Program-made: the position numbers and the translations under genes | Source: Bacteroidia bacterium | Lineage (GTDB): Bacteria > Bacteroidota > Bacteroidia > J057 > JADKCL01 | Assembly (NCBI GenBank): GCA_041565275.1 | Contig: JBFGVE010000003.1 | Coordinates: 1 to 60,529 of the forward strand | Length of the DNA: 60,529 nt | Reading direction: 5' to 3' | Shown: positions 8,315-43,123 of the stretch, one piece after another | How positions within the stretch are numbered: the first letter of the stretch is position 1 | Layout: each line of letters begins with the position of its first letter | Notes under the pieces: model-generated | Seen by the model: only the letters and a program-made list of their open reading frames with translations | Told to the model about the DNA's origin: nothing | The model's database searches: none

Positions 8315-8322
8315 TAGATTTG
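8315..8322 (+). promoter_or_regulatory. Putative -7 promoter element for gldKLMN
   Basis: TAGATTTG matches TAnnTTTG exactly, 42 nt before gldK ATG; no well-spaced -33 TTTG found. Confidence 0.4.
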
Positions 8323-8364
8323 AGAGCAATAGGTGAATTTGGATTGTATAATATTTAGTCTGCT

Positions 8365-9402: not shown

Positions 9403-9536
9403 ATAGGGAAGTTCTAAACGATTGGTCCTGGAGATCAAAGACCAACTTTCATTAACCAGCATTAGATATTTTTCGAAATAATTGTCACAAGTAGCGTCTT
9501 ACTGGTAGTATTAGAAACATTAAGGAGAAGTAAATA

Positions 9537-10385: not shown

Positions 10386-10423
10386 TTCCTCAGTCTGATC
10401 ATTTAATAAAAGATAAAAAAGTT

Positions 10424-25426: not shown

Positions 25427-27283
25427 TTACAACTGGTCTAGAAACTCCCGGAGGGCTTTTTGATTCTGCCTCGCTTGCTCATAAAATGGGTCTTTGGCAA
25501 GTGCAGCACTAAAAAGTGAATCAGCTATTTGATAATTCCCAGTATTCATCTCTATGAACCCAAGGTTGGTGAGGAGGCTCTTATCAAAAGGTTTAATAAT
25601 CAGGCATTCGCGGAATATCTGACCTGCCTTGGCCAAAGCGGATGCTGGATCAATTCCAGAGTTGGAAGCATGGACTTGCTTTAAAGTCAACAAGCCTATT
25701 TTCTGGCCCGCTGGGGTTAGGTAAGTATTGGTCTGGTAGGCACGTTCATAAAAGGAAATGGCCCCTCTGATATTTCCCATGCCTTCCAGAATCTCCCCTT
25801 TTTGATAAAGTCGCCAAGGATCATTGGGATCAGTTGTCAAGGCCTGATCGATCTCATCCAAAGCTGCTTCAAGGTTGCCTTGGTAAAAAAATACCTTAGA
25901 CCGCTCAAAGTGGGAAGTGGGCGCAATCTCTTTAGCAGCACGGTCCAGGAATTCTGGCTTAGGATCGTTCCGTTCATAATGAAGAAGATAAGCTTTTCCA
26001 TACACATCGGGAGCAACCTTTTGGTTGGTCATGCAGACCAAGTCTACAAACTCTCGGACAGCGAGGGCCTCAACCGTATCATCTTTAACGATCCTAATCT
26101 TATGGTCTGAGAACAGGACATGTGGGATATCGCTGGTTCCCCTCTTAGGCATATGACAAGTCACACAATTTCCATTTTCAGCTGCTATCATCTCTTCTGA
26201 CAAGCCACAACCGGTCTTACCGTTTACACTATGGCAATTCATGCACTTCTCAACATAGACTTTTTGCCCGGTAATGGAGATGCTCTTATGTGGGTTGTGG
26301 CAGGTGGTACAATTAAGGCTGTCCTTGCTGTTAATGAAGCATTGGGACTCGCGTAGTCTCTCTGCATGGGAAGCAATGCCAAAGGCTTCTCCGTCAGCCA
26401 CCTTTTGAATAAAAATGTCATAAATTTGGTTCAGCGCCATGCCGGGACGGTAATCAACTACAGACTTATGGTTTCCCTTCAAAACATTGATTCCTTGTAA
26501 ATGGCACTGCTGGCAAATATCAAACTGCAAGCCAATAGGAAGATTGGCCGGGTTTACGATCGAATAGTCTATTTTTCGGCCTACATCAATCAGTTCTCCT
26601 CCTTCCTTAAGGAGTTTGTGAATTGATCCTGGGCCGTGGCATTTTTCACAGCCGATCCCCAGGCTGACTTCCCGGAATTGGTTTGTTGTACCCTCCCTAA
26701 AGTCAATATGTCCAGTATGACAAGCCATACATTCCTCGCCGATCTCACGGTCAAAACGGGTATTGAATCCATTTTCATATCCGGGGCTTAAGTCCCAACG
26801 CTGACCTTTAACATACCAAGTAATGGGTATTTCGTAGAAATGTTGGTTGCGTTCGATGAGATAAGAACGGGTTTGGTGGCCGGAACCGATAATATAATTG
26901 ACTTTCTCGATGCGTTTGTAGGTCGTATCATTGGCTGGACTCAGGCGAAATTCCAGAATGAGTAAATCATTGCCACTCCAATATGGATGGTAGTAGTAGC
27001 CTGAATGAGAATCAAATATGACCTCTTTTGGACCAAAGCGTTCTATAATTTCCGATCTGCTAGGTTGATAAAGCGATCGGCCCATCCCCGTTTGGAGATA
27101 GGATTGATAAATCTCTTTGTGGCACGGCTGGCAAGATTTCATACCCACATATTGAGCTTCTGGCCCGAGATTAAGGTAGGTATCAGGAGGATCAATGGTG
27201 GCAAAATCCCCTGTACAACTAGCAAACCAAGCCATTAGCATGAGGATTGCGAATCCGCTTAGATACAAATAGATAGGATGCAT
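25427..27283 (-). CDS. Multiheme (7 CxxCH) cytochrome c lipoprotein with C-terminal TPR domain
   Basis: Lipobox FAS-C; CQPCH, CMACH, CEKCH, CQQCH, CTTCH, CMNCH, CVTCH; TPR helices (YQKGEILEGMG, LTNLGFIEMNTG). A -7-like TATCTTTC lies at 27291-27298. Confidence 0.9.
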   Translation of the reverse strand: MHPIYLYLSGFAILMLMAWFASCTGDFATIDPPDTYLNLGPEAQYVGMKSCQPCHKEIYQSYLQTGMGRSLYQPSRSEIIERFGPKEVIFDSHSGYYYHPYWSGNDLLILEFRLSPANDTTYKRIEKVNYIIGSGHQTRSYLIERNQHFYEIPITWYVKGQRWDLSPGYENGFNTRFDREIGEECMACHTGHIDFREGTTNQFREVSLGIGCEKCHGPGSIHKLLKEGGELIDVGRKIDYSIVNPANLPIGLQFDICQQCHLQGINVLKGNHKSVVDYRPGMALNQIYDIFIQKVADGEAFGIASHAERLRESQCFINSKDSLNCTTCHNPHKSISITGQKVYVEKCMNCHSVNGKTGCGLSEEMIAAENGNCVTCHMPKRGTSDIPHVLFSDHKIRIVKDDTVEALAVREFVDLVCMTNQKVAPDVYGKAYLLHYERNDPKPEFLDRAAKEIAPTSHFERSKVFFYQGNLEAALDEIDQALTTDPNDPWRLYQKGEILEGMGNIRGAISFYERAYQTNTYLTPAGQKIGLLTLKQVHASNSGIDPASALAKAGQIFRECLIIKPFDKSLLTNLGFIEMNTGNYQIADSLFSAALAKDPFYEQARQNQKALREFLDQL

Positions 27284-29372: not shown

Positions 29373-32300
29373 TTATTTCATCAAATAGACTTTGCCAAAG
29401 CCAGCTTTGTTGAAATATTGGTCAATGCCTTCATCCTTCTCCTTGACGCTATCGCGGTCCCTGAATTGGATATGTGCCTTGTAAATGTAGACTCCGTTGG
29501 CAAGGGGGTCACCAAATTCATCGGTACCATTCCAGAAAGTTTCAGTTAGATTACGACCCATGTAGACATCTTCCCTTTCTAGTAGATCCAGAGTCTTGAC
29601 CAAACGCCCGCTGATGGTGTAGATCCGGATTTCAAAGATATAGGGTAATTCGCCTCCGGTCAGGGTGTAGGCAAAGCGAGTTGAAGTAGAGAATGGGTTT
29701 GGATAGGGAAGGACCTTTGAAATGGCCTTTTCATTGACCACATTAAAGTGGATAACGTATTCATCGGTAGCGCTTGCATTGCCCTTGAAATCATAACCTT
29801 GTACGGCGAGGGTGTACTCACCATCATCAAGTAATCCTGGATGGAATACAAGCCGTGCTTTGTTTTGAGGAAGCTGCCCCACCTGAGACTCAATTTTTGG
29901 ATTTCCTTCGATGAAGATCTGCTCGTTGAGCCGGAAGGTACGATCGCTACCAAACCAGATATTATAAGTAGAGTCACTGATGGCCACCGGAAAATACTGG
30001 TTTTCATCATTCAATTCAATGACAATCTCTGGCTCTGGTGCTACAATATCACCGTCCATTAACCGTTTCCCGTCGACAGTGACGTCGAGGATAGGACCAA
30101 TCTTATCAGTGCGGACATGCATACGATGGAAGTAGAAATTGTTGAATTCGTTGTGTTCCACTTGATCAAGATCAGGATTCAACTCAATGATTAAAGTGAC
30201 CTGACCCTCTAATTCCCGACCATCTGTATGAAACCTGTAATCCAGTACCATAACCTCGTTGGCTGCCAGTGGTGCATAACGTTGGTAACCAATCACTTGG
30301 TTGCTGCGGTCGCCCCTCAACAATGAATATCTAACTAAAAGGCTGTCTGTACCAAACTCAGTCAAATTACGTGCACCCATTTTTAGGTTGATGACCTGCC
30401 CCTCATCAACAGTGTCGGGAATATCAAAGGCATAACTGGGGTCAACTGAGACGTCAGGAGCAGGTTCAAAATACACTTCCCAAAATTCCAGCTGAGGTGC
30501 AGTTCTGAAAGAGCGGTCTTCGACTCGTCCTTCCAGCCGGAGAAAGGGGAATTCATCAGAATTGATAGAGGAGATCACTTCAGGACCAATCTCTAAATTT
30601 CCAATCAATAGTACTTCAGTATTATCACGCCGGACACCGTAAATATTGCTGATGGTCTTCTCCTGATTGAAAGGATCAACCGTAGACCAATCCATATTGA
30701 ATTCCGCCCAATCATTCGAGGGACCTATATTAATAGATGAAACAGAAGCGGAGTCATAGCTGGCACTTAGGTCGATCAACAAATCGTAACGGGGAGGATT
30801 ATTTCCAATGGGAAGATTGGGCTTTCTGATAACGATAGCAGTGCCGGGCGCCCCACCTTTACGGCCCAGAATGATTATTCTGTCACCATTTTTAAGACCA
30901 TCGACCTGTTCACCTGATACACCGATCATTTCCAGTGTTTGGAACCATGCGGGTTCCCATTCCCCAAACTTGGGATTCCGAGAGCTTACCATCAGAAAGT
31001 AATCTCCATCCGGAGTATTAATGATATGGTCAAAAAGAGGTTGGAGTGGATCATCTATGAGACCACTTGTGTTGGGTGCAGATGCAAATGTCCAATCGCC
31101 ATAGAATGTATTCAGAAAAGATGGCTCAAGCGTCTTTTGGCTGATGGCAGTATAGCAGACACCATCTCCGGGAAAATTATCCGATCTGAAAGGTCCAAGG
31201 AAAAACTCTGGGTTTTGAGAAAAATCTCCAAATGAGCGGATATACGCATGCAGATTGACTACAAAATTATCAAAGATCCAGATGTGATTGGTTTGATCCA
31301 TGGTGATCCGAGAAGTTGGGTTCCGGAAAAATTGTGGTTCATCGCTTTGGGACCAACCGGTTTTCCCGGGAATATATTTAAATGAACTTTCGTTCCATTG
31401 AACCGGATAGGTATCTGCCAGCCGTACCCGCCAGTAATACACTTGTCCGGGTTGAAGGTCTAGGGATGGATTCCATCTTACAATGGATGAGCTTCCCATG
31501 ATCCGCCCGGACCCAATCCTGAACTCAGAAGTAAATGTATGTGATGTGTCGAGCTCAAATTCATAGGCCATATTGTCTTCCCGAGTGATGATAAAGGTTG
31601 AGGCGACCAGTGAAACTCGGGAGCTATCGACAATTGCATACTCATAGGGAGAAACAATGGCAGGGATATCTCCCTGAATGATTACTTCATTATTGAGACG
31701 GTTATTGGTTTCCAGATATTCGTCAAGGGTGTCAAGAGCATCGACAAAAACCTGAAAATCATTGAGACCGGCTAGGTCAGGTCCAAGAGTATTGAAGATG
31801 GGATAAGAAATAGAATCGATGTAGTCAACAGGACCAATTTTCTTCTCTGGGTAAGTGGTTATGCTTCCATTTGGGATTCTGTGAGTAATCTGAATTTGAA
31901 AGCTGTCGGTGAAGGTTCGCCCATTGTTGTGAACGATGAGGTTGAGGGTGTATTCATTGTCCAAGGCAGAGATGGTCTCAGGTTCGAAGTAGAGGTCTGG
32001 ATCTGATATTTGAAGGTCAGGTTTTTGGGGAAAGCGAAGAACAACGGAAGGATCCCCTTGCAGATTCATCTGCTTGGAATGGTTGATCGTCAGAATATTG
32101 CTGGCAAAATTGCCAGAGGTAGCGTACTTATCAATCACTTTTTGTAAGATCACTCCAATCGGAGCTCCATAGGTTGAATCCCCAAACATCACTTGGTAAA
32201 GATCTTCACCGAAAAGGTGTAATTGTTGTAAGAACCCAGCGGATGTGTTGGCTAGGTAGCCAATGCTCCCTCGATTCGGTTCAAGAATAAATCGCTCTCC

Positions 32301-34352
32301 AAAACTAAGGGTTGAGTTGTTGAAATCTCCTCCATAGCAGCCAAAAGCAATCATAAAAGGATACCGGTCGAAGTTTTGATAGAGCCTGGCTTCGAGAATA
32401 TCGACATCGAAGATATTGGTGCCAGAATGACCAAAGAAGTGGATCAGACCTACTCCCCGGTCGATGAACTCCTTAGATGTCTTGTTGGTGTTGGAAATAT
32501 TTCCAGAGTTCGAGGTCTGAAAAGTAAATACTTTTCCACCCATGGGGGTATTTTCAAGATGGGGTCTGAAGGCATTTCTCATAACACTGGAGATCGTATT
32601 CTGCTCAGCTTGGGTCTTTCCGCCTCCAAGGAAAACGGCCTCCTTCATCCAATAAGCATAATCCATATGCTCATACTTATTCACTTTATCCAGGTAGTTC
32701 AACCCTTCGCTGTCTTCGATTAGGGAGACTCGGCCAATGGCAGCTTCCGGGGTGACACTGGTTGAATTGCGGTCGAAATTAGAAACGTATTCGTAATCGT
32801 TGGCGGGTTCCCCGAAGGTGGGGATGTAATTGTACAGGTTGTCAAGCTTGGGTGCAGGGCGCCCTTTACCCCATAACATGAAAAATTTGGGAGGGGTACT
32901 CCAATTGTCCATGGTGTATTTACAGAAATTTTTGATAGCCAAGGGGTTTAGGCTACCATAGCCAAATTCATCGTAAATCTCATCTACAAATACGACTTTA
33001 GAACTCAGTTGATTGACCCGACAAGTATCTCTGTATTGTGCGTACAGATTGGCTGAATTACTGAATTTACGGTGAGTAATGATGACAAATTCAGCTTCGT
33101 TTCCAGGGTCGCTTAGGTTAGTAAGACTGGTCTGATTCTGGATTACCGGACTCAACAGAGACTTATCGGTATAGATATACAGATCCCTGGGGTCTGGGAA
33201 ACCGGGTACCAGGAACTTAAGTGTATCCCCGACTACTGTGGCTGCGACGGACTGCTTCAGGATAGGATCATACAGCCAAGCTTCACTACTTACATCAGCA
33301 TTAAAGAACCGCAGGTAAGTGGTATCGGTCTTGGTCCATTCACGAACGATGGTAGTGGACGAGTCATCCATATCGAAAGTGCGGTCATATTCGATATAGG
33401 TCCAGCAGGGTGCTCCTGCATCTGGGATCACGCCATTTCCCAAGGCGCCATAGCGAATAGTAGTCGTGTTTCCCAATACCTGATTCGTACTAAATTCGCG
33501 GGTACGAATGTTAATGTTCGAGGTGGTGTCCCTGAAGTGTTCATTTCCATCCACCTGAATAGCGAGGATATGATTACTTGAAGATGTGACGTGTACGGCC
33601 CGGCACTTAATCTTGGTAGGTCTACCCGAATTTGCGAATCCTGGTGTGGAGACCAACGATATCCCCGAATTGGGAGGGCCACCAAATTCAAAGCGCATAC
33701 CGACAAAACCTTCACCTGTAACATAGTCGGGATTTAATACGTGGTAGGGATTGTCACTGCTACCTCCACCACGAAAGTACTTTTCCGTGTGCTCACGCAA
33801 GGCTCGGTATCGATACCAGGGTTCCGGGTTGAAGGAGTCGTAATTATCGGTGGAGTTGACCACATCGTACCGCCGGGTCCCGACAGAATCCCAAGTGATG
33901 AAATAAGCAGAAGTATCTGAAAAAAAACTGCTGAAACGGGTAGGCTGTTGCTCAGGGTCATAACCAAAGGGTGGAATGACAGAGCGGTATATCAGAGAAT
34001 CGAGGTGGCCATCATTTCGTTTGCCGAAAAATTCAATGAAACTGAGCTGGCCGTTGTCGGTGGCTGTTCTGATGGGGATTTCCCGACCGCGGTAGATGAC
34101 TTGAATGGCTGTCGGGTCCAAACCGGAAACATCGACACCGGCAGCAGTCAAATCACTTTCGCTTACCCGGTAAAATCCGTCTTTGTCGATCAAGAACTTG
34201 ATGTAACTCTGGTTGGACCTGTACCATTGATTAAAATAGTCATAGCCTCCACCCCCCTGGCCAAAAATACAGGTCATTTGTCCGGAGACAAATATCAGAA
34301 TAAGGGGTAAAATGAATTTTATCAAATATTCCACGTTCCAAAGGCTTCTCAC
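29373..34352 (-). CDS. C25 (gingipain/PorU-related, PorU2-like) cysteine peptidase with T9SS C-terminal domain, paralog B
   Basis: FVIITHRKF, VDEIYDEFGYG, FMLWGKG, AAIGRV, His motif HFFGHSG, Cys motif AFGCYGGDF, NLQGDP, CTD YPNPFSTST...ANGVYIYK. GTG start overlaps paralog A stop. Confidence 0.9.
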   Translation of the reverse strand: MRSLWNVEYLIKFILPLILIFVSGQMTCIFGQGGGGYDYFNQWYRSNQSYIKFLIDKDGFYRVSESDLTAAGVDVSGLDPTAIQVIYRGREIPIRTATDNGQLSFIEFFGKRNDGHLDSLIYRSVIPPFGYDPEQQPTRFSSFFSDTSAYFITWDSVGTRRYDVVNSTDNYDSFNPEPWYRYRALREHTEKYFRGGGSSDNPYHVLNPDYVTGEGFVGMRFEFGGPPNSGISLVSTPGFANSGRPTKIKCRAVHVTSSSNHILAIQVDGNEHFRDTTSNINIRTREFSTNQVLGNTTTIRYGALGNGVIPDAGAPCWTYIEYDRTFDMDDSSTTIVREWTKTDTTYLRFFNADVSSEAWLYDPILKQSVAATVVGDTLKFLVPGFPDPRDLYIYTDKSLLSPVIQNQTSLTNLSDPGNEAEFVIITHRKFSNSANLYAQYRDTCRVNQLSSKVVFVDEIYDEFGYGSLNPLAIKNFCKYTMDNWSTPPKFFMLWGKGRPAPKLDNLYNYIPTFGEPANDYEYVSNFDRNSTSVTPEAAIGRVSLIEDSEGLNYLDKVNKYEHMDYAYWMKEAVFLGGGKTQAEQNTISSVMRNAFRPHLENTPMGGKVFTFQTSNSGNISNTNKTSKEFIDRGVGLIHFFGHSGTNIFDVDILEARLYQNFDRYPFMIAFGCYGGDFNNSTLSFGERFILEPNRGSIGYLANTSAGFLQQLHLFGEDLYQVMFGDSTYGAPIGVILQKVIDKYATSGNFASNILTINHSKQMNLQGDPSVVLRFPQKPDLQISDPDLYFEPETISALDNEYTLNLIVHNNGRTFTDSFQIQITHRIPNGSITTYPEKKIGPVDYIDSISYPIFNTLGPDLAGLNDFQVFVDALDTLDEYLETNNRLNNEVIIQGDIPAIVSPYEYAIVDSSRVSLVASTFIITREDNMAYEFELDTSHTFTSEFRIGSGRIMGSSSIVRWNPSLDLQPGQVYYWRVRLADTYPVQWNESSFKYIPGKTGWSQSDEPQFFRNPTSRITMDQTNHIWIFDNFVVNLHAYIRSFGDFSQNPEFFLGPFRSDNFPGDGVCYTAISQKTLEPSFLNTFYGDWTFASAPNTSGLIDDPLQPLFDHIINTPDGDYFLMVSSRNPKFGEWEPAWFQTLEMIGVSGEQVDGLKNGDRIIILGRKGGAPGTAIVIRKPNLPIGNNPPRYDLLIDLSASYDSASVSSINIGPSNDWAEFNMDWSTVDPFNQEKTISNIYGVRRDNTEVLLIGNLEIGPEVISSINSDEFPFLRLEGRVEDRSFRTAPQLEFWEVYFEPAPDVSVDPSYAFDIPDTVDEGQVINLKMGARNLTEFGTDSLLVRYSLLRGDRSNQVIGYQRYAPLAANEVMVLDYRFHTDGRELEGQVTLIIELNPDLDQVEHNEFNNFYFHRMHVRTDKIGPILDVTVDGKRLMDGDIVAPEPEIVIELNDENQYFPVAISDSTYNIWFGSDRTFRLNEQIFIEGNPKIESQVGQLPQNKARLVFHPGLLDDGEYTLAVQGYDFKGNASATDEYVIHFNVVNEKAISKVLPYPNPFSTSTRFAYTLTGGELPYIFEIRIYTISGRLVKTLDLLEREDVYMGRNLTETFWNGTDEFGDPLANGVYIYKAHIQFRDRDSVKEKDEGIDQYFNKAGFGKVYLMK

Positions 34353-37300
34353 CTCATAATATACAGTTTCCCGAAACCATTCTCCATGGTGGCAGGTCCG
34401 CCTTCATCGCGGTATTCGATGGCTTCGCCATTTAGTTTTGCAATCACTTTGTAAATATACACTCCATTTGCAAGTACGTCGCCAAACTCATCCTTTCCAT
34501 CCCATGCATAATCTGTAATGTTACGCCCTATTTTAATATCATTCATTTCCACCAGATCGATCACGTTGACCAATTTTCCCGAAATGGAATAGATATGCAA
34601 TTCAAAACGTTCAGGGATTTCATTCCCGGTAAGGGTGTAGACAAACCGGGTTGATGTAGAGAACGGGTTGGGGTAATTTAGAACATCAGAAAGACTGGAA
34701 CGGTTAATAACTGTAAAATCCATTTCATAAGCCACCTTTCCTGAGGGATTTCCAGACTGGTCATACCCTTGCACCCTAATGGTATATTCCCCATCATCGA
34801 GGGGTCCGGGGCGGAAATACAGGCGAGCTTTGTTATCTGGTAATTGAGCGGGTACAACTTCCATTTGCGGATTGCCTTTGATGAAAACTCGGGGGAGGTT
34901 CGCAGAATTAGGCGTTTTATAACCGAATGAAACCTCAAATGCCGTGTCACTGACCAAGAGAAAGGGGTTGTCATCGTTAATTTCCATCAAAATTTCAGGA
35001 TTGGGAGAAACGATATCACCAGCCATTAGGTGCTTGCCATTTACGGTAACATCGAGGATCGGATTTACAAGATCCTGGTCTATAAAGAAATTGTATTCAT
35101 AATAATTGTTGAATTGGTATTGTTCGGGTTGATCTTTATCAGGATTGATCTCAATGTTGAAAGTCATGTGACCTTCAGAAGGGAAGTTTACGGTGTTGAC
35201 AGAATGACTTAGAATGGCACTGGAAGATCTTGGCAAGGGGGCATACCGCTGAGTTCCAGAGTAGACCAGGGTTCTGTTAATGTCTTTTATAGAGAACCTT
35301 ACTAAAAGACTGTCCATGTCATTTTCGGTAATATTGCGGGTGGTGAACTGGACGGAAATAGATTCTCCTTTCCTGACCGTATCTCGATCAAAAGTCCACT
35401 CTATGGTTGGATCGATCAGGGCATCAGGAGCAGGGTTGTAGATCACATGCCATTGCTCCAATTGCGGAGCAGTCAGGTAAATGCTGTCCTGAGTTTGGGC
35501 TTCAAGTCTCAGAAAGGGGAAACTAGAAGCGTCAATTGCCAAAAGCGAATAATTGCCAAGTGGAAGACCAGTATAAACGAGGGAATCAGTGTTGTCGGTG
35601 CGAACAGCATAGACGGAGACCTTTATGGATTCTTGAGGGAACTGGTCCAAGGATTTCCAATCCCAAGTCATGTCAAACCATTGAGTGGCGGGACCGATAG
35701 AGGTGGAAATAATGTGACCACTGGAATAATTGGTTTGGAGGGATTTACGAAGATCAAATTTGTATATACCAGCAGTGGCATCATAAATATTAGGTTCCGT
35801 GATAGTAATTCCCTGGTTGGGCTCCCCCTTTTTACCAAAAATAATAAAAGAATTGCCGGATGGGATGCTTTTGATTTTATTGGTGTCTCCTCCGATTAAG
35901 GCAAATGCCCTAATTAACTGGTCACTCCATAAGTGAGCTTCAGGATTTCCTTCACTGACTGCGAGAAAGTAATCACCTTCAGCCACATTGAACAGGGCAT
36001 TGGTGACATCGCCTTCTGTATCGGGCATTTCAGAATAGATCCAATCCCCAAATAAAGTTCGCTGAACGGTGGGAATGAGGTCTTTGGACCTGATGGCTGT
36101 GTGAAGAATACCAGAGTAATTCTGGGAAGGCAGAGTACTGGAAAAAGCACCGTTTGCAAGGCGGTAAGCTCCATGATTCCCTTGGTTGACAAATGCATGA
36201 AGTTCCACCGCATACTGATCAAAGTTCCAGATATGGTTAACCTTATCCATTGCAATGGTCTTGGTAGGATCGCTGAAGAATTGTGGAGGGCGCGATTGGG
36301 CCCAGCCATTCTTAGTATTGATATACTTGAATGAAGCACTGGCCCAGGTAGCCGGCAAGATATCTTGTAATCTTACCCGCCAATAATACACCATGCTGTC
36401 TGTGAGTGTGAAGGGAACATCCCACTCTGCAAAATTGAAAGAACCCTTCACTGTGGGGGAAGCTGTGTAAGCCGGGGAATTGAAGGTCGGAGTGGTGTCG
36501 ATTTCAAATAGATAAGGTATTTCGAGCTGTGTACCCATGACGAAGGCAGAAGCCGAAAGGCTCACCCGGTTATCTTCCACTACCGCAAAATCGTAAGGAA
36601 ACAGGATGGCAGGGAAATTGCCTGGGACCACATGGTCAAATAGAACTCGGTTGTTGTTTTCCTGATACTCGTCAATAATGTCAGTAGAATCTATGAAAAT
36701 ATCAAAGGTATTAAGCCCGGCCATTTCAGCATTCAGTGTATTGTTGATCGTCATCGAAATGGTATCGATATTGTCGATCGGTCCATGGTAGATGGAAGGA
36801 TAGGTTATCCAGTCTCCAGTGGAAGGAATGCGCTGGCGGAGACTGACATAGAAAGAGTCTTGGGTTACCCGGCCTAGATTGCGGGCGACTATATTGACCT
36901 CAAATACAGAGTCGGCAGCAGAGAAGTTCGACGGACTGAAGTAGACGTCGCTCGCGGTGATTTCAAGGTCCGGTTTTGCTGCAGAATAGAGACGGATGGC
37001 CGGGTCACCTTGTAGATTGATCTGCTTTGCATGGTTGAGAAGGGTTTGGCCGGAGGAGACATTCCAATAGGTTTGTAAGGCATTTTTAATGGAGGTTCCG
37101 ATAGAGCCTCCATAATTGGATCCAAACATCATAGGATAGATGTTGGTACCCAGATTACCGAGCGGGCTCAAGAAACCTGCCGTCGAGTTTGCGAGGTACC
37201 CAATGCTTCCGCGTTCAGGCTCAAGCACAAATCGTTCTCCAAAGCTCTTGCCATCCCCGACAAAGTCTCCTCCATAACATCCGAATGCAATCATCAGAGG

Positions 37301-39301
37301 ATATTTACCGTAGTTTTGGTAAAGGATCGGTTCCTTGATATCTACATCATAGATATTGCTGGAAGAGTGACCAAAGAAGTGGATGACACTAACTCCTGCA
37401 TTGATTCGATCAGTAGAGGGCATTGATGAATTGGTAACCTGGCCAGTATTGTATTTCTGATAATAACTGTATTGGCCACCGGCAGGAGGACCAGCCACCA
37501 CAGGACCATATTGGTTTTTGAAGTAATTCAGGATAGGATTTTGTTCTCCGATATTCTCTCCGCCACCAAGGAATACAACTTCTTTCATCCAGGCTGCCCA
37601 ATGTGTGTGTTCGTACTCATTGACCTTGTTGAGGTAGTTGAAACCTTCAATATTATTTTCACAGTTGACCCTACCAATTGGTACCTCTGGTACAGCATTT
37701 TTCACATTTGGATCAAAATCGGAGACGTATTCGTAATCTGAAGCGGGATAGCAAGGCGTTGGGACCATATTTTTTGGCGCATTCCGGGTTTTGTACTGCC
37801 CCTTTCCCCAAAGAAGGAAATATTCGGGTGTAGTGTTCCAATTATCAATTGCATACTTACAGAACCGCTTAATTCCCCAAGGGTGAATGGTCCCATAGCT
37901 GAATTCATCGTAGATCTCATCCACAAATACCACTTTGGCTGAAAGCTGATTGACTGTATTGGTATCGCGGTAGTTTTTATAGGCTATGGCGGAATTTGCT
38001 AGGGATCTGTGGGTAATGATCACAAATTGAGCGCCTCCGGCGGGATCTTTTAAGTTTGCCAGACTGGGCTGTGCGATGAGCGGATTCTTGATCCCGCGGT
38101 CAGTTACCACCTGCATCTGGCGTGGAGCGGACCCACCCGGTACAATCGCTTTGAGGGTATCACCAGAAAGGGTAGCTTGAATTCGGGTATGTTCATCTAG
38201 ATCAAAGATCCAGGCCTCGTTGTCAGCGGTCACATTCTCGAATCGACAGTAGCTTGAATTGGGTTTGTCCCAGGAAACCATTTTGATGGTACTGTCAGCT
38301 CCCAAATTGAAGAGCCTGTCGTATTCGATCGAAGACCAGCAATAATTGTTGTTGTCAGTATTATTTTCATTCCCCGTGGCAAGAAAGCCAAGTTGAGTCG
38401 TTGCGGAAAGGGGATTGCTGTAAAGTAGTTGACGGGTTTTGATATACACACCTGAAAAGGTATCAGTCCGAAGGATATTGTTGTTGACATCCAGAGTTAG
38501 GATATGCTCCCAACTGGATCTTCCAAAGATCCGGCTTTTGACAAGGCTTGGATTGCCAATGTTGGCGGGATAGGGCGTGGGGATATTGATAGCCAGCCGA
38601 TTGCTCCTTGAAAAGCCTGGGCCCACATATCCTTCGCCGGTTATCCAGTAAGAATTCAGAATGTGGAAGGGGTCGTACTGGGCTCCACCAGCTTTGTTCC
38701 AGCTTGCATTGATTCCACTGGTATTGGGGTGGTATTCTTTGTAGGCTTCGTAACGGAAAAAGGATTCAGGTGGATAGCTGGAATAATTAGTGTCCAGGAA
38801 GGTTTGATAACGAAGACCGGGCGAATTATCGTAAGTAAGAAAGTAGGCTGAGGTATCCGAAAATGCGCTGAGATGGATATTGGGTATTTGATCGTTGTCG
38901 TGGAGGCCAGAGTTGGGATCGCGGTACATGATGGAGTCTACCTTACCATCATTTCGTTTGCCATAAAACTCTAAAAAATCTACAACGCCTCCTGTTTCTT
39001 CAACATAAATGTATTGTTCTTCCCCTCTGAACACCAGATGGAGGTTTGCGGGATCAATTCCGTTTAGAGAGAAGCCACTTGCAGCAAGATCTGCTGCGGT
39101 GACACGGTAGACCCCGTTTTCCCAGATCTTCAACTTGACATAGTTGTTACCAGGGTTATACCAATTATTTCCGTATTCAAATCCTCCGGCCGCAGATAGG
39201 GGAGGAGTAGCAGGCAGAGGGGAGCTGGAGCGGAATCCGTTTGCGAACACCGCGAAAAGTAGCATAGATAAAAATAACAATGCTGCCGCTTTCTTCCACA
39301 T
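34349..39301 (-). CDS. C25 (gingipain/PorU-related, PorU2-like) cysteine peptidase with T9SS C-terminal domain, paralog A
   Basis: Signal peptide; FVIITHRSL, VDEIYDEFSYG, HFFGHSS, AFGCYGGDF, NLQGDP, CTD YPNPFSTST...ANGVYIYK; colinear with paralog B along its whole length. Confidence 0.9.
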   Translation of the reverse strand: MWKKAAALLFLSMLLFAVFANGFRSSSPLPATPPLSAAGGFEYGNNWYNPGNNYVKLKIWENGVYRVTAADLAASGFSLNGIDPANLHLVFRGEEQYIYVEETGGVVDFLEFYGKRNDGKVDSIMYRDPNSGLHDNDQIPNIHLSAFSDTSAYFLTYDNSPGLRYQTFLDTNYSSYPPESFFRYEAYKEYHPNTSGINASWNKAGGAQYDPFHILNSYWITGEGYVGPGFSRSNRLAINIPTPYPANIGNPSLVKSRIFGRSSWEHILTLDVNNNILRTDTFSGVYIKTRQLLYSNPLSATTQLGFLATGNENNTDNNNYCWSSIEYDRLFNLGADSTIKMVSWDKPNSSYCRFENVTADNEAWIFDLDEHTRIQATLSGDTLKAIVPGGSAPRQMQVVTDRGIKNPLIAQPSLANLKDPAGGAQFVIITHRSLANSAIAYKNYRDTNTVNQLSAKVVFVDEIYDEFSYGTIHPWGIKRFCKYAIDNWNTTPEYFLLWGKGQYKTRNAPKNMVPTPCYPASDYEYVSDFDPNVKNAVPEVPIGRVNCENNIEGFNYLNKVNEYEHTHWAAWMKEVVFLGGGENIGEQNPILNYFKNQYGPVVAGPPAGGQYSYYQKYNTGQVTNSSMPSTDRINAGVSVIHFFGHSSSNIYDVDIKEPILYQNYGKYPLMIAFGCYGGDFVGDGKSFGERFVLEPERGSIGYLANSTAGFLSPLGNLGTNIYPMMFGSNYGGSIGTSIKNALQTYWNVSSGQTLLNHAKQINLQGDPAIRLYSAAKPDLEITASDVYFSPSNFSAADSVFEVNIVARNLGRVTQDSFYVSLRQRIPSTGDWITYPSIYHGPIDNIDTISMTINNTLNAEMAGLNTFDIFIDSTDIIDEYQENNNRVLFDHVVPGNFPAILFPYDFAVVEDNRVSLSASAFVMGTQLEIPYLFEIDTTPTFNSPAYTASPTVKGSFNFAEWDVPFTLTDSMVYYWRVRLQDILPATWASASFKYINTKNGWAQSRPPQFFSDPTKTIAMDKVNHIWNFDQYAVELHAFVNQGNHGAYRLANGAFSSTLPSQNYSGILHTAIRSKDLIPTVQRTLFGDWIYSEMPDTEGDVTNALFNVAEGDYFLAVSEGNPEAHLWSDQLIRAFALIGGDTNKIKSIPSGNSFIIFGKKGEPNQGITITEPNIYDATAGIYKFDLRKSLQTNYSSGHIISTSIGPATQWFDMTWDWKSLDQFPQESIKVSVYAVRTDNTDSLVYTGLPLGNYSLLAIDASSFPFLRLEAQTQDSIYLTAPQLEQWHVIYNPAPDALIDPTIEWTFDRDTVRKGESISVQFTTRNITENDMDSLLVRFSIKDINRTLVYSGTQRYAPLPRSSSAILSHSVNTVNFPSEGHMTFNIEINPDKDQPEQYQFNNYYEYNFFIDQDLVNPILDVTVNGKHLMAGDIVSPNPEILMEINDDNPFLLVSDTAFEVSFGYKTPNSANLPRVFIKGNPQMEVVPAQLPDNKARLYFRPGPLDDGEYTIRVQGYDQSGNPSGKVAYEMDFTVINRSSLSDVLNYPNPFSTSTRFVYTLTGNEIPERFELHIYSISGKLVNVIDLVEMNDIKIGRNITDYAWDGKDEFGDVLANGVYIYKVIAKLNGEAIEYRDEGGPATMENGFGKLYIMR

Positions 39302-39419
39302 AGATCTCAGTATTTTCTGTAAAGAGTTTTCGAATACTACACCTATTCTGGTAACTACTAAAACTACTTAAAGAATGCCCAATAATCAAACGAATAGCCT
39401 CGTAATTAGGGGTTTGTCT

Positions 39420-40505
39420 CTACTTAACCCCCTGTAGGGCGAAGGTATACCGAAGGGAAAAAACATGCGAATAAAGCGTTTGAGAAAAGTTGCCGACATT
39501 GGAGAGGGCATAATCCACAGTGAAGTTTTTCAGACGGAATCCTGCGCCCATAGTCGGGAAAACACTGAAGGTATCCTCTCCCTTATCATTGGGAGTACGT
39601 TGCAGATTCTTGAATCCTCCTCGCAAGAATGCCAATTCTTTGTAAGAGATTTCTAAACCAGCGTGTGGATCAACAGACACCGAACCCAAGTTGGCAATCA
39701 CATTGCGCTGGCCATCGAAATGGACATCCGTATCTAATGATACCAGTACATTGACCTTCTTTCCGCTCAAGAAGGTATATCCTCCCCCCAGTTTCAAGGA
39801 AGGAAGGGTAATTTCAAGAGAATTTTCGGGAATAACGTTTCCGGTCTGTGCGAAAGCATCTTCGAAGGTTTCAGTATTAAAAGACCAAGCATTGAAGGTG
39901 CTGGTGACATCACTCAACATGACGCCAATCTGAAGCTTATCTAAGTCCCATCGGGCACCCAGGTCAAGGCCAAAACCCCAGGCATTGGCAAATTTCCCGA
40001 CAGATCTGTTAACAATTTTAAAGTTGGCACCTGCATTCATACCTCCCAGGAAGTCAAACTTTTGGGCCAGAGACAACACAATTCCGAGGTCTGCGACGGA
40101 AAAAGTCTCGACGGCATCAAAATCTATGTTCCCGTTGGCATCGACGAGGTTGAGGGTATTGGCAATATCATCTACACCTAGGCGGATAACAGAAGCACCG
40201 AAACGACGACCTCCGCCGATGGGCATAGTAAACCCAGCATAATCGTATTTGGCAATGCCCGCAAAATATTCGGAGTGCATCAAGCCGATCTCAAGCGCAT
40301 CAGGAGCAAGATTCAGACCGCCAGGGTTCCAGTATCCGGAAGTAACATCTTCCACAATCCCGACTTGGGCATTTCCCATAGCGGCTGCACGTGCCCCTAC
40401 ACCGATCTTAAGGAATTCATTCGAATATTTTCGCACACTTTGCCCGTGAAGCAAAAACCCCGCTCCCAAAAAGAGCAATGTCAAAGCTATGATCTTGAAA
40501 CGCAT
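39420..40505 (-). CDS. PorV-family outer-membrane beta-barrel (T9SS shuttle-like)
   Basis: KYSNEFLKIGVGARAAAMGNA, YWNPGGL, HSEYFAGIAKYDY, IRLGVDDI, VDYAL. ATG 40505 preferred over TTG 40514. Confidence 0.88.
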   Translation of the reverse strand: MRFKIIALTLLFLGAGFLLHGQSVRKYSNEFLKIGVGARAAAMGNAQVGIVEDVTSGYWNPGGLNLAPDALEIGLMHSEYFAGIAKYDYAGFTMPIGGGRRFGASVIRLGVDDIANTLNLVDANGNIDFDAVETFSVADLGIVLSLAQKFDFLGGMNAGANFKIVNRSVGKFANAWGFGLDLGARWDLDKLQIGVMLSDVTSTFNAWSFNTETFEDAFAQTGNVIPENSLEITLPSLKLGGGYTFLSGKKVNVLVSLDTDVHFDGQRNVIANLGSVSVDPHAGLEISYKELAFLRGGFKNLQRTPNDKGEDTFSVFPTMGAGFRLKNFTVDYALSNVGNFSQTLYSHVFSLRYTFALQGVK

Positions 40506-40533
40506 AAAACTCAAAAATTCTGAGATAAGAGAT

Positions 40534-40565
40534 CAAAAATACTGGAGGATGTATTAGCAGACAAG
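40534..40565 (-). promoter_or_regulatory. Bacteroidota sigma70-type promoter for the porV-C25-C25 operon
   Basis: Minus strand CTTG-N20-TATTTTTG (exact TAnnTTTG), 28 nt before ATG 40505. Confidence 0.6.
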
Positions 40566-40635: not shown

Positions 40636-41325
40636 TTAATCTGGAGTAGATGACCTGATTTCATCGAAAAAGGCTTCTTTTACAGGTATTAACTCCTGTT
40701 CATAATCAATCATCAATTGATAGAAGGTCCCTGATTGCATATATTTGTTGTTGTCGATCCCAACTCGTTGGAGGATCTTTTGCAGTACCCGGGAGATATG
40801 ATCGAATTTGGCATAGTTGTACAGGTACTGAAGCCGCAGAAACTTTTGCATATAAGACTCATAGTTGGGCAAATTTCTTCCGAGTGCGATCTCAGAGGTC
40901 TTTCTCAGGTCCCGAAAAGGCTGCAGCGCCCCAAAGTGACCATAATAGGAATTCAGGATACCGGGATTGTCATCGATCAGTATCTTGTCGATCAACAATT
41001 CAAGAAGAATGTGAGCTATAAAAAACTTACGCTGAATATTCAACTCAGGGAAATAGGACTTCAACATATTGGAAATGCGCTTGGTCTGTCTTTCAAAGGT
41101 GGGGGAAAGGTGGAATATACCATCCGCAAAGAAGTGTCGATATAGCCCTGAAAGGAATGGAGGAGTGATCATACCTGCCTGATCCTCGCTCATCTTCTTC
41201 AGGTGGCGGGCTTTGATCCTGAGATTGGAGTTGTAGATTGACAGTAGGTCAGGTGTGGCAACTCCGACAACAAAGTGACTGTTGACACGGTCTCGGTCCA
41301 AATAATAATGAGCTACCAAATTCAT
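40636..41325 (-). CDS. Hypothetical protein, ACP phosphodiesterase (AcpH)-like HD-type fold candidate
   Basis: MNLVAHYYLD...GVATPDLL, HFFADGIFH, FIAHILLELLIDKIL resemble AcpH metal motifs. ATG 41325 preferred over 41376. Confidence 0.6.
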   Translation of the reverse strand: MNLVAHYYLDRDRVNSHFVVGVATPDLLSIYNSNLRIKARHLKKMSEDQAGMITPPFLSGLYRHFFADGIFHLSPTFERQTKRISNMLKSYFPELNIQRKFFIAHILLELLIDKILIDDNPGILNSYYGHFGALQPFRDLRKTSEIALGRNLPNYESYMQKFLRLQYLYNYAKFDHISRVLQKILQRVGIDNNKYMQSGTFYQLMIDYEQELIPVKEAFFDEIRSSTPD

Positions 41326-41423
41326 GAAGCATTGTTTTTCTGTCGAAGCCGTGAAGTTATCATTTCTTTTTTGCATTCTATGACAAGTAGGAACAGGCTG
41401 TTTTGCGTAAAACCAAGAAAATT

Positions 41424-41530: not shown

Positions 41531-43123
41531 ATGGGACCTTATGAGTTAATGGGACTGGCCTGGGGAGCCATAATAGTTTGGATTGGCGTTGTAATCTACT
41601 TGAACAAAGATATACATCCAGGAGCACTGTTCCTTCTGTTTTTTGCTGAAATGTGGGAGCGCTTTTCTTATTACGGAATGCGTGCACTTCTGGTCTTGTA
41701 TATGATTGATAAGCTCGTTCTTTCCGGAGAGGGTGACACAATGACAGGGATGGGATACTCTGAAGAAATGGCCTATTCCATCTATGCAGCTTACGGGGCC
41801 ATGGTGTATGCTACACCAGTACTGGGAGGATTGATCGCGGAACGCATATTGGGTTATCGAAAGTCCATTCTTTGGGGTGGAATTCTCATGGCAGCAGGCC
41901 ACTTTGCTATGGCCTTCGAAGATGAGACGATCTTTTTTATTGCTCTGGCGCTACTGATTTTGGGAAATGGATTTTTCAAACCGAATATTTCAAGTTTTGT
42001 AGGCAAATTCTATGCAGATGGCGATCCGCGGAGGGATGGAGGCTTCACCATTTTCTACATGGGTATCAATATTGGCGCTTTCCTGACTCCACTCACATGC
42101 GGTGTGATCGGAGAGATCGAAGGCTGGCACTATGGATTTGGGCTCGCAGGAGTAGGAATGGTCCTGGGACTGATTGTATTTCTTGTAGGACTAGCCACTG
42201 GCGTATTTCAAGACAAAGGCTATGAACCCGCCAAAAGTGCTGTTAAATCAGTTGTCAAGACAGGTGCATCCAAAGTAAAAGGCTGGCTGGGACCGATCAC
42301 CTTGAACGAGATCCTTGTATATGTAGGCTCCTTTGTTGCTATCCCTATTGTCTATCTCCTCCTCAACCACAACGATGTACTGGACTATATCTTGGGGGGT
42401 GTCTCGATTGGTGGCTTGGTCACCTTGGTCGTCATGGGTTATATGCAGGAGTCGAAAGAACAGCGGGATAAGCTGTTTGTTATAACCGTACTGTTCCTTT
42501 TCACTGCTTTATTCTGGACCTTTTTTGAACTTGCAGGATCAGCTATCAACGTTTTTACGGCTAAGAATGTTGACAAGATGATGATGGGTAATGAAATGCC
42601 GACCACTTTCTTCCAATCGATAAATCCACTCTTTATCATTCTGTTTGCCCCACTTTTTTCCTTCCTGTGGCAATTTTTGGCCAAAGCAAAATTAGAACCG
42701 TCGGCACCACTCAAATTTGCTATTGGAGTTTTGCTCCTGGGGCTTGGATTTGTAGTCTTGGGCGTAAGTGATGGCGCAGCTACCGAGGGTATGGTCCCTG
42801 TGATCTATTTGATCCTTGGTTATCTATTGCATACTTGGGGAGAGTTGTGTTTATCTCCGGTAGGGCTGTCCCTGGTGACGAAATTGTCACCGGCTAAGTT
42901 GGTAGGTTTTGTGATGGGAATCTGGTTTCTGTCCTCTTCCGTTGCTCACCAGGCAGGTAAATTTATCGCTACGGAAACGGCTTCCGAAAATCTATTACCG
43001 GCTGAATCCTTAACGATTTATACTGGTGTCTTTATGAATGTAGCCTATATCGCTTTGGGAGCATCAGCGATCCTATTTATACTTTCTCCCTTCCTGAAAA
43101 AGGGAATGCACGGAGTACGTTGA
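41531..43123 (+). CDS. Proton-dependent oligopeptide transporter (POT/PTR, MFS)
   Basis: FFAEMWERFSYYGMR (ExxERF), GNGFFKPNIS, FTIFYMGINIGAF, GELCLSPVGLS. Confidence 0.96.
   Translation: MGPYELMGLAWGAIIVWIGVVIYLNKDIHPGALFLLFFAEMWERFSYYGMRALLVLYMIDKLVLSGEGDTMTGMGYSEEMAYSIYAAYGAMVYATPVLGGLIAERILGYRKSILWGGILMAAGHFAMAFEDETIFFIALALLILGNGFFKPNISSFVGKFYADGDPRRDGGFTIFYMGINIGAFLTPLTCGVIGEIEGWHYGFGLAGVGMVLGLIVFLVGLATGVFQDKGYEPAKSAVKSVVKTGASKVKGWLGPITLNEILVYVGSFVAIPIVYLLLNHNDVLDYILGGVSIGGLVTLVVMGYMQESKEQRDKLFVITVLFLFTALFWTFFELAGSAINVFTAKNVDKMMMGNEMPTTFFQSINPLFIILFAPLFSFLWQFLAKAKLEPSAPLKFAIGVLLLGLGFVVLGVSDGAATEGMVPVIYLILGYLLHTWGELCLSPVGLSLVTKLSPAKLVGFVMGIWFLSSSVAHQAGKFIATETASENLLPAESLTIYTGVFMNVAYIALGASAILFILSPFLKKGMHGVR

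What the first reader, a model, noticed from the sequence alone, without database searches (positions are those of the whole stretch)
29373..40565. Self-contained T9SS attachment-like module: one PorV-family barrel plus two full-length tandem C25 peptidases
Seen: promoter, porV-like gene, C25-A (1650 aa), C25-B (1659 aa; GTGA overlap with A). Both keep His (HFFGHS) and Cys (AFGCYGGDF, compare gingipain ACVNGDF) and both end in a T9SS CTD. They are colinear but widely diverged, so the duplication is old and both are maintained. Known: canonical PorU is a C25 sortase that cleaves CTDs and attaches cargo to A-LPS, working with PorV. These proteins are ~500 aa longer and fit the poorly characterised PorU2-like group. 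Inference: a second sorting/anchoring system with two specialised transpeptidases (different cargo or acceptors) or an obligate heterodimer, with a dedicated shuttle.
Basis: partly seen in the sequence, partly recalled or inferred. Interest (0 to 1): 0.7.

Follow-up and report, generated by a model that had tools for sequence, protein, structure and literature searches.

The report
PorV2 barrel plus duplicated PorU2 peptidases
This is a three-gene operon for an outer-membrane barrel and two old, both-intact copies of a giant cysteine peptidase related to the type IX secretion sortase PorU. The family is already catalogued (PorV2/PorU2) but untested, carries a lectin-like domain, and in some bacteria is the only PorU-type enzyme present.

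Summary
On the minus strand lie porV2 (39420-40505), porU2-A (34349-39301, 1650 aa) and porU2-B (29373-34352, 1659 aa). A and B are joined by a GTGA stop/start overlap. All three exceed the curated NCBIfam cut-offs for 'putative PorV2' (NF052325) and 'putative sortase PorU2' (NF052324). The family is therefore already named, but I found no paper that tests it.

The genome also has canonical PorU, PorV, PorQ and two PorZ genes, so this module is additional.

A and B are 44% identical. They arose by one duplication inside this bacterial family. Both keep the His/Cys dyad and both are under strong purifying selection (dN/dS about 0.07).

- The roughly 500-aa PorU2-specific insert is a chain of beta-sandwich domains around an ILEI/PANDER-fold, lectin-like domain.
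- porV2-porU2 is a two-gene unit across Bacteroidota with no constant third partner.
- PorU2 duplications recur independently in several lineages.
- Nine complete Ferruginibacter-like genomes keep PorV, PorV2 and PorU2 but lack PorU, PorZ and PorQ.

Most likely reading: a surface-anchored, PorU-like peptidase/transpeptidase module that does not depend on the canonical attachment complex. Its function is inferred, not shown.

The parts
39420..40505 (-). porV2: PorV/PorQ-family outer-membrane beta-barrel, about 361 aa from the ATG at 40505 (the ORF tool starts at TTG 40514)
   Evidence: NF052325 PorVQ2 460 bits (cut-off 325); PorV_fam 109 bits; canonical PorV and PorQ models below cut-off. Signal peptide read from the sequence. 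Weak match to solved PorV 6h3i_F.
34349..39301 (-). porU2-A, 1650 aa: signal peptide, PorU-like N-terminal region, C25 catalytic domain, beta-sandwich/ILEI insert, PorU-like C-terminal domain and CTD
   Evidence: NF052324 596 bits (cut-off 450); canonical PorU model 219 bits (<420); Pfam C25 198 bits; TIGR04183 25 bits.
36989..38026 (-). C25 catalytic domain of A (residues 426-771). His645 codon is 37367-37369; Cys675 codon is 37277-37279.
   Evidence: Pfam PF01364 covers 1-374/374. His and Cys are invariant in 31 PorU2 sequences and align with the PorU and gingipain dyad.
35042..36988 (-). PorU2-specific region of A (residues 772-1420): a chain of beta-sandwich (CARDB/MG-like) domains around one alpha/beta domain. 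P. gingivalis PorU has only about 160 aa here.
   Evidence: AF2 model pLDDT 94.1. Foldseek gives only generic multi-Ig arrays with TM<0.25. The PorU 6ZA2 alignment skips this region.
35771..36319 (-). ILEI/PANDER-fold (FAM3 / POMGnT1-stem-like) domain of A, residues 995-1177
   Evidence: Pfam ILEI PF15711 is hit by 57 of 77 aligned PorU2 homologues, best E 2e-12; the window's own A and B segments got no Pfam hit (A at E<=1; B at E<=0.01). AF2 pLDDT 89.9. The top 21 Foldseek PDB hits are all FAM3C ILEI, FAM3B PANDER, FAM3A, POMGnT1 stem or TMEM2 (prob 1.0, TM 0.5-0.7), followed by a sharp drop.
34352..34681 (-). T9SS C-terminal domain of A (residues about 1541-1650; YPNPFS at 1543)
   Evidence: TIGR04183 25 bits. 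Aligns to the PorU 6ZA2 C-terminus 952-1148.
29373..34352 (-). porU2-B, 1659 aa, GTG start overlapping the A stop (GTGA). His642 codon is 32427-32429; Cys672 codon is 32337-32339. The ILEI-like segment is 30801-31370.
   Evidence: NF052324 569 bits; C25 199 bits. Overlap confirmed. C-terminus matches PorU model 872-1088 at 85.9 bits. Residue numbers.
40534..40541 (-). TATTTTTG, a possible Bacteroidota -7 promoter element 29 nt upstream of the porV2 ATG
   Evidence: Pattern match only. The motif occurs at chance frequency in the window (50 found, 44.5 expected).
40636..41376 (-). Upstream 246-aa cytoplasmic protein (weak AcpH-like match). A lineage-specific neighbour, probably not part of the module.
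   Evidence: No signal peptide. PF04336 at 17.8 bits, below cut-off. Conserved upstream of porV2 only in this order.

Best explanation
The locus is an operon for the PorV2/PorU2 module, a paralogue of the PorV-PorU part of the type IX secretion (T9SS) attachment complex. Here the peptidase gene has been duplicated.

Inferred mechanism:
- Both PorU2 proteins are exported by Sec and then by the T9SS through their C-terminal domains.
- Each stays on the cell surface docked by an uncleaved CTD to the PorV2 barrel, as PorU does on PorV and PorZ on PorQ.
- The Cys/His C25 domain cuts a surface or secreted substrate, most likely the CTD of a subset of T9SS cargo. It may transfer that substrate to an acceptor, sortase-like.
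- The long beta-sandwich stalk with its ILEI/PANDER-fold domain positions the enzyme and may bind a glycan. That glycan could be an acceptor or a glycosylated cargo. This would be a built-in substitute for the separate PorZ helper.

Copies A and B come from one duplication in this bacterial family and have been kept as two specialised enzymes sharing one barrel.

Shown here: family membership, intact dyads, domain anatomy, duplication history, selection, gene pairing, and independence from PorU/PorZ/PorQ. Inferred: surface docking, substrate, transpeptidation, glycan binding, and what A and B specialise in.
For: Family and homology:
- Curated NCBIfam cut-offs are passed for PorV2 and for both PorU2 copies.
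- A PorU2 profile hits solved PorU 6ZA2 at E 4e-28, over the catalytic and C-terminal domains. Gingipain R scores only 1.4e-5.
- The His/Cys dyad is invariant in 31 sequences.

Gene pairing:
- porV2 lies immediately upstream of porU2 in 67 of 80 loci from Chitinophagales, Cytophagales, Flavobacteriales, Bacteroidales and Sphingobacteriia.
- No third gene is shared by more than 19 of those loci.
- PorU2 and PorV2 co-occur in 37-38 of 41 related genomes.

Duplication:
- The A and B clades each have 100% support and are sister groups inside family f1.
- dN/dS is 0.066 (A) and 0.068 (B) for G000-G002, and 0.076 and 0.112 for G007-G008.

Insert: ILEI fold in the PorU2-specific region.

Independence from the canonical complex:
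- Nine 100%-complete genomes of one Bacteroidia family have PorU2, PorV2 and canonical PorV.
- One of them carries a protein that NCBI labels Ferruginibacter sp..
- They have no PorU, no PorZ and no PorQ.
- Six sister genomes in the same family have all of these.
Against: - No experiment on any PorU2 or PorV2 was found.
- The C25 archetypes (gingipains) are degradative proteases.
- In this order a peptide:H+ symporter gene lies divergently two genes upstream, which would also fit a nutritional protease.
- The window's own ILEI-like segments do not reach Pfam significance. Their assignment rests on homology and a predicted fold.
- Glycan binding by ILEI domains is documented only for POMGnT1 (my knowledge plus PDB titles).
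- CTD retention and docking to PorV2 are by analogy only.
- Absence of PorU/PorZ/PorQ in the nine genomes rests on HMM searches of six-frame translations.
Confidence: 0.55

Rival explanations
1. PorU2-A and PorU2-B are ordinary T9SS cargo. On this view they are large gingipain-like surface or secreted proteases that degrade external (glyco)proteins for nutrition. The ILEI and beta-sandwich domains bind substrate, and PorV2 is merely their dedicated export or anchoring barrel.
For: - The C25 family archetypes are degradative.
- Both proteins carry a CTD, like cargo.
- A POT-family peptide symporter lies divergently nearby and is syntenic within the order.
- Lineage-specific duplications are typical of nutritional enzymes.
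Against: - They are far closer to PorU than to gingipains over the whole PorU length, including PorU's non-catalytic C-terminal domain.
- They are near-universal, mostly single-copy and slowly evolving in the order.
- They are strictly paired with a PorV/PorQ-type barrel across five orders.
- POT linkage is confined to one order.
- They are retained exactly where PorU/PorZ/PorQ are missing.
Confidence: 0.2
2. A and B work as an obligate heterodimer. One copy regulates the other, by analogy with the intermolecular latency of the PorU dimer, and they do not have separate substrates.
For: - The genes are translationally coupled, which implies roughly 1:1 synthesis.
- There is a single PorV2 for two peptidases.
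- PorU is reported to dimerise with one monomer inhibiting the other (review PMC10202324).
- In genus g5, B evolves up to twice as fast as A.
Against: - Both copies keep the catalytic dyad and similar constraint in this genus.
- Most PorU2-bearing genomes have one copy, so the ancestral enzyme works alone or as a homodimer.
- Independent duplications give 2 or 3 copies in other lineages.
- Only 13 clade-fixed differences exist, scattered over all domains.
Confidence: 0.12
3. The module serves something other than type A CTD processing. Examples are maturation or anchoring of a surface glycoprotein layer, of type B CTD or gliding adhesins, or envelope remodelling.
For: - The lectin-like domain.
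- Frequent envelope-lipid neighbours: CDP-alcohol phosphatidyltransferase in 19 loci and Lnt in 7.
- Canonical PorU is present in most carriers, so a duplicate CTD peptidase seems redundant.
Against: - No neighbour is consistent across lineages.
- PorU-less carriers would then have no CTD peptidase at all.
Confidence: 0.13

Closest known systems
NCBIfam NF052324 (PorU_rel_Nterm, 'putative type IX secretion system sortase PorU2') with NF052325 (PorVQ2, 'putative type IX sorting system protein PorV2')
   Same: All three window proteins exceed the curated cut-offs (596, 569 and 460 bits). The length (about 1650 aa), gene order (porV2 then porU2) and domain order match hundreds of loci.
   Different: Here the peptidase is present as two tandem paralogues that are 44% identical. 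Most genomes have one. The family names are marked putative, and no paper testing them was found.
PorU-PorV of the T9SS attachment complex (P. gingivalis PorU, PDB 6ZA2; PorV, PDB 6h3i)
   Same: C25 fold with a Cys/His dyad. The N-terminal region, the C-terminal beta-sandwich and a CTD are homologous. The partner is a PorV/PorQ-family barrel encoded next door.
   Different: - PorU2 scores 219-243 bits on the PorU model (cut-off 420).
- It carries roughly 500 extra residues with an ILEI-fold domain.
- The gene order is reversed (barrel first).
- It occurs with or without PorZ/PorQ.
- The genome has its own canonical PorU at 1255 bits.
Gingipains RgpB/Kgp (peptidase family C25, degradative)
   Same: Same catalytic fold and motif style (GH..., GC..GDF). 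T9SS CTD.
   Different: Similarity is much weaker (26 bits vs 101 bits for PorU with the same profile). There was no match beyond the catalytic region, and no dedicated barrel is known for gingipains.
ILEI/PANDER (FAM3) domains and the POMGnT1 stem domain
   Same: Predicted fold of residues 995-1177 (TM 0.5-0.7, prob 1.0). Pfam ILEI is hit by 57 of 77 homologues.
   Different: Sequence identity is 11-16%. The window's own copies miss the Pfam model and lack the two Cys of the family consensus. Ligand binding is untested.

Membership tests
PorU2 (NCBIfam NF052324) | Score over the curated cut-off (450 bits) across the 879-position N-terminal model | tested here: met
   A 596 bits (38-884), B 569 bits (36-884).
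PorU2 (NCBIfam NF052324) | Length of about 1650 aa, with the PorU2-specific insert conserved between the C25 domain and the PorU-like C-terminus | tested here: met
   13-sequence alignment conserved end to end. 77 homologues align over residues 772-1420.
PorU2 (NCBIfam NF052324) | Adjacent PorV2 gene | tested here: met
   porV2 ends 118 nt upstream of porU2-A. The same order occurs in 67 of 80 loci.
PorV2 (NCBIfam NF052325) | Score over the curated cut-off (325 bits); below the PorV and PorQ equivalog cut-offs | tested here: met
   460 bits; PorQ 60 bits (<220); PorV 40 bits (<250).
Canonical PorU sortase (NF033707) | Score over 420 bits on the 1095-position model | tested here: not met
   A 219 bits, B 243 bits. 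The genome's real PorU on contig C5 scores 1255 bits.
Canonical PorU sortase (NF033707) | Cys/His catalytic dyad of clan CD family C25 | tested here: met
   His645/Cys675 (A) and His642/Cys672 (B) align to the dyad region of PorU 6ZA2 and gingipain R.
Canonical PorU sortase (NF033707) | Cleaves cargo CTDs and transfers cargo to A-LPS; works with PorZ and PorQ | not testable with these tools
   Biochemical property. Comparative data show that PorU2 occurs without PorZ or PorQ in nine genomes.
T9SS type A CTD (TIGR04183) | C-terminal sorting domain over the cut-off (23 bits) | tested here: inconclusive
   A 25 bits, which is met. B has no hit at E<=0.01, but its C-terminus matches the PorU model CTD region at 85.9 bits and is 55% identical to A's CTD.
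Gingipain-type degradative C25 peptidase | Closest relatives are gingipains; pro-domain plus catalytic plus IgSF architecture | tested here: not met
   The profile scores PorU at 100.8 bits and gingipain R at 26 bits. The architecture follows PorU.
ILEI/PANDER domain (Pfam PF15711) | Pfam match and FAM3-type fold | tested here: inconclusive
   Neither window copy got a Pfam hit (A at E<=1; B at E<=0.01). 57 of 77 homologues hit it (best 2e-12). The predicted fold of the A copy matches only ILEI-family structures.

The most novel reading that the evidence does not exclude
PorU2-PorV2 is a self-sufficient, minimal T9SS attachment machine. In this reading:
- One barrel (PorV2) takes the place of PorV/PorQ as the anchor.
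- The built-in ILEI lectin-like domain of PorU2 takes the place of PorZ as the acceptor-glycan presenter.
- In Ferruginibacter-like bacteria that lack PorU, PorZ and PorQ, it is the only CTD signal peptidase/sortase.
- In this family, copies A and B have split that job between two cargo or acceptor classes.
Probability: 0.3. Interest if true: 0.75.

Novelty: new member of a known kind. Interest (0 to 1): 0.42.

Why it matters
How T9SS cargo is sorted between release and different surface anchors is an open question, and all mechanistic work rests on PorU/PorV/PorZ/PorQ of P. gingivalis.

PorU2/PorV2 is present in about 45% of the sampled Bacteroidia genomes (33 of 74). It is the sole PorU-type enzyme in some cultured-genus relatives (Ferruginibacter). 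A knock-out there would directly test whether a second, simpler attachment route exists.

The lectin-like domain gives a concrete hypothesis for acceptor or cargo choice.

The maintained A/B pair in this family offers a natural experiment on specialisation.

Tried and rejected
- Literature searches for PorU2/PorV2, 'PorU-like/homolog/paralog', PorU latency and ILEI+T9SS found no study of this family. The PorU2/PorV2 'hits' were superscript reference numbers. The PorU structure paper (PMC8501833) is not held.
- Hypothesis that the insert is a PorZ-like beta-propeller (a PorU+PorZ fusion): rejected. The model is a string of beta-sandwiches plus an ILEI domain.
- Hypothesis that PorZ copy number tracks PorU2 copy number:
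  - It holds in this family, where tandem PorZ occurs in the same genera as A/B.
  - It fails in every other lineage with duplicated PorU2, where PorZ is 0 or 1.
  - So it may be coincidence on one branch.
- Search for a conserved third gene: none found. The most frequent neighbours are CDP-alcohol phosphatidyltransferase, PspC/PadR, Lnt and a LytTR regulator, each in a minority of loci.
- Single-sequence PDB search of A found nothing; a profile was needed.
- Promoter and terminator scans were at chance level.
- I could not name the window's own organism. The records say only 'Bacteroidota/Bacteroidia bacterium'. One same-order MAG (G020 contig C58, same length as RFSG01000016.1) is labelled Sphingobacteriia.
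Full report
**1. Observation**

Three co-directional ORFs lie on the minus strand: 39420-40514 (364 aa), 34349-39301 (1650 aa) and 29373-34352 (1659 aa) (translations).

- The barrel gene most likely starts at the ATG at 40505. This gives a classic signal peptide, MRFKIIALTLLFLGAGFLLHGQ.
- The stop of A and the GTG start of B overlap as GTGA.
- A and B are colinear and 43.8% identical.
- Both hit Pfam Peptidase_C25 end to end, at 198 and 199 bits.
Sigma-70-type sites (24 found, 22.4 expected) and the Bacteroidota -7 motif TAnnTTTG (50 found, 44.5 expected) are at chance level. One TATTTTTG does sit 29 nt upstream of the porV2 ATG.
- No terminator-like site follows B. An FKBP-type isomerase gene converges on it.

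**2. Identity**

Against NCBIfam:

| Protein | Model | Score (bits) | Cut-off |
|---|---|---|---|
| Barrel | NF052325 'putative PorV2' | 460 | 325 |
| Barrel | canonical PorV | 40 | 250 |
| Barrel | canonical PorQ | 60 | 220 |
| A | NF052324 'putative sortase PorU2' | 596 | 450 |
| B | NF052324 'putative sortase PorU2' | 569 | 450 |
| A | canonical PorU NF033707 | 219 | 420 |
| B | canonical PorU NF033707 | 243 | 420 |

The family is therefore already catalogued. UniRef also uses a 'putative type IX secretion sy...' name (truncated in the output) for relatives.

I found no paper that studies it. The apparent literature hits for PorU2/PorV2 are superscript reference numbers, and further searches found nothing relevant.

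**3. The rest of the genome**

The assembly is 3.34 Mb in 336 contigs and 98.7% complete. It encodes:

- a canonical PorU (contig C5, 1255 bits)
- a canonical PorV (C4, 437 bits)
- a canonical PorQ (C15, 349 bits)
- two tandem PorZ genes (C50, 455 and 469 bits)

The window's module is therefore additional to a complete canonical attachment complex.

**4. Relation to PorU and gingipains**

A profile of 13 PorU2 sequences hits the solved P. gingivalis PorU (6ZA2) at E 4e-28. The match covers the catalytic domain and the C-terminal domain plus CTD (PorU residues 952-1148). Gingipain R reaches only E 1.4e-5.

The catalytic His (GH[SG]) and Cys (GC) are invariant in all 31 PorU2 sequences examined. 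They align with the PorU and gingipain dyad. The residues are His645/Cys675 in A and His642/Cys672 in B.

**5. Anatomy of the extra length**

PorU2 has about 645 residues between the C25 domain and the PorU-like C-terminus. PorU has about 160 there.

- An AlphaFold2 model of A residues 772-1420, built on 77 homologues, is confident (pLDDT 94.1).
- It shows a chain of beta-sandwich domains. Foldseek matches to these are only generic multi-Ig arrays with TM<0.25.
- One alpha/beta domain sits within the chain. From its consensus I suspected an ILEI/PANDER (FAM3) domain.
- The test confirmed this. 57 of 77 homologous segments hit Pfam ILEI PF15711, best E 2e-12.
- A separate model of A residues 995-1177 (pLDDT 89.9) finds only FAM3C ILEI, FAM3B PANDER, FAM3A, the POMGnT1 stem domain and TMEM2 as its top 21 PDB matches. 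These have probability 1.0 and TM 0.5-0.7. The next match has probability 0.1.
- The window's own A and B segments got no Pfam hit on their own (A at E<=1; B at E<=0.01).
- The POMGnT1 stem is a carbohydrate-binding module (PDB entry titles, plus my own knowledge). A lectin-like role is therefore a reasonable but untested inference.
- The insert is not a PorZ-like propeller.

**6. Distribution and pairing**

- More than 571 genomic loci encode full-length relatives. They span Chitinophagales/Saprospiraceae, Cytophagales (Fulvivirga, Pontibacter, Cyclobacteriaceae), Flavobacteriales (Fluviicola, Crocinitomicaceae), Bacteroidales (Marinifilum, Rikenellaceae, Lentimicrobiaceae) and Sphingobacteriia.
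- porV2 lies immediately upstream of porU2 in 67 of the 80 retrieved loci. Several of the others are cut by contig ends.
- No third gene is shared widely. The best candidates are a CDP-alcohol phosphatidyltransferase (19 loci), PspC/PadR (10), Lnt (7) and a LytTR regulator (7).
- The AcpH-like 246-aa gene and the divergent POT peptide symporter beside the window's module are conserved only within this order.
- Among 41 close relatives, 38 have PorU2 and 37 have PorV2 over the cut-off.
- In an even sample of the phylum, 33 of 74 Bacteroidia genomes carry PorU2.
- 66 genomes of other classes carry longer relatives (about 1500-2440 aa), almost all scoring below the cut-off.

**7. The duplication**

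- In a maximum-likelihood tree, the A copies and the B copies of nine genomes form two clades, each with 100% support. Both sit inside this bacterial family, beside a single-copy member (G005).
- One further genome (G004) has its own independent tandem pair.
- All other families of the order have a single PorU2 over the cut-off.
- The B stem is longer (0.52 vs 0.16).
- Both copies are under strong purifying selection. dN/dS is 0.066 (A) and 0.068 (B) between this genome and its congener, and 0.076 and 0.112 in another genus. dS is high (1.2-2.8), so the ratios are approximate.
- A:B identity is highest in the catalytic domain (54%) and CTD (55%). It is lowest in the N-terminal region and the insert (38-39%).
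- Only 13 sites are fixed differently between the two clades, and they are scattered over all domains.
- Duplications of PorU2 beside a single PorV2 recur independently: in a Ferruginibacter-like genome (order U2'-V2-U2), in a genome with three copies, and in other classes. One Saprospiraceae MAG instead has two PorV2 genes.
- This recurrence argues for repeated specialisation, and against an obligate heterodimer as a family trait.

**8. Independence from the canonical complex**

Tandem PorZ occurs in exactly the genera that have the A/B pair, and in no other family of the order. In other lineages with duplicated PorU2, however, PorZ is present once or not at all. The link may therefore be a coincidence on one branch.

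That control exposed a stronger pattern. In one Bacteroidia family, nine 100%-complete genomes from at least seven genera have PorU2, PorV2 and canonical PorV. They have no canonical PorU, no PorZ and no PorQ. Six sister genomes have all three.

The PorU2 of one such genome is identical to an NCBI protein labelled Ferruginibacter sp. Cultured F. lapsinanis and F. sp. SUN002 have 60%-identical orthologues.

| Sampled Bacteroidia genomes (n=74) | Count |
|---|---|
| Both PorU and PorU2 | 24 |
| PorU2 only | 9 |
| PorU only | 32 |
| Neither | 9 |

PorU, PorZ and PorQ thus come and go as a unit, while PorU2/PorV2 is independent of them.

**9. Interpretation**

The best-supported reading is a PorU-like surface peptidase/transpeptidase module. 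It is exported by the T9SS and docked on its own barrel. Its lectin-like stalk domain could select a glycan acceptor or glycosylated cargo. In this family the module has been split into two specialised enzymes.

Homology, anatomy, evolution and co-occurrence are shown. Docking, substrate, transpeptidation and glycan binding are inferred.

The main rival is a nutritional gingipain-like protease. It is disfavoured by the PorU-type architecture, the strict barrel pairing, the housekeeping-like conservation, and retention where PorU is absent.

**10. Verdict**

However, the group is already named by curators, and this scan has reported it repeatedly.

- the dating of the duplication and the selection analysis
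- the ILEI-fold domain
- the recurrent independent duplications
- the PorU/PorZ/PorQ-less carriers

Together these turn 'what does PorU2 do?' into a directly testable question.

Noticed in passing
own genome, contig C50:5914-8130 and 8200-10449 (+): Two tandem PorZ genes, both over the NCBIfam cut-off (455 and 469 bits). Tandem PorZ occurs in the same genera (g1, g2, g5) that carry the PorU2 A/B pair and in no other family of the order. PorZ is not duplicated in other lineages with duplicated PorU2.
   Followed up: partly
own genome, contig C5:36708-37784 (-) and C5:37777-41820 (-): A fourth PorV/PorQ-family barrel (NF033709 134 bits, below the PorV, PorQ and PorV2 cut-offs) lies directly downstream, with an 8-nt overlap, of a 1348-aa protein with a PorU/PorZ-like CTD. 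This is another 'large CTD protein plus own barrel' pair.
   Followed up: no
window 40636-41376 (-) and 41531-43123 (+): A cytoplasmic 246-aa protein with a weak AcpH (ACP phosphodiesterase) match and a divergent POT-family peptide:H+ symporter are syntenic with porV2-porU2 throughout this order, but not in other orders.
   Followed up: partly
L126 (G078:C1:3288001-3308000) and L125 (G234:C5:311000-326000): Independent PorU2 expansions in a PorU-less family. One genome has three PorU2-like genes around one PorV2 (U2''-U2'-V2-U2). A Ferruginibacter-like genome has U2'-V2-U2.
   Followed up: partly
L081:24-2591 (Saprospiraceae MAG) and L053:1092-3695: One locus has two tandem PorV2 genes before a single PorU2. 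Another has a PorU2 fragment upstream of PorV2 in addition to the full-length gene downstream.
   Followed up: no
phylum sample, non-Bacteroidia classes (e.g. G328, G112, G148, G200): Long PorU2-like proteins of about 1500-2440 aa, most of them covering the whole N-terminal model, nearly all at 210-440 bits (below the cut-off). Some are in tandem pairs (G332, G184, G048). This may be a sister subfamily.
   Followed up: no
window 49377-53849 (+): A 1490-aa protein with a T9SS type B sorting domain (TIGR04131 54 bits) and PKD-like repeats.
   Followed up: no
window 25427-27283 (-): A 618-aa protein combining multihaem cytochrome c motifs (weak decahaem family matches) with TPR repeats.
   Followed up: no
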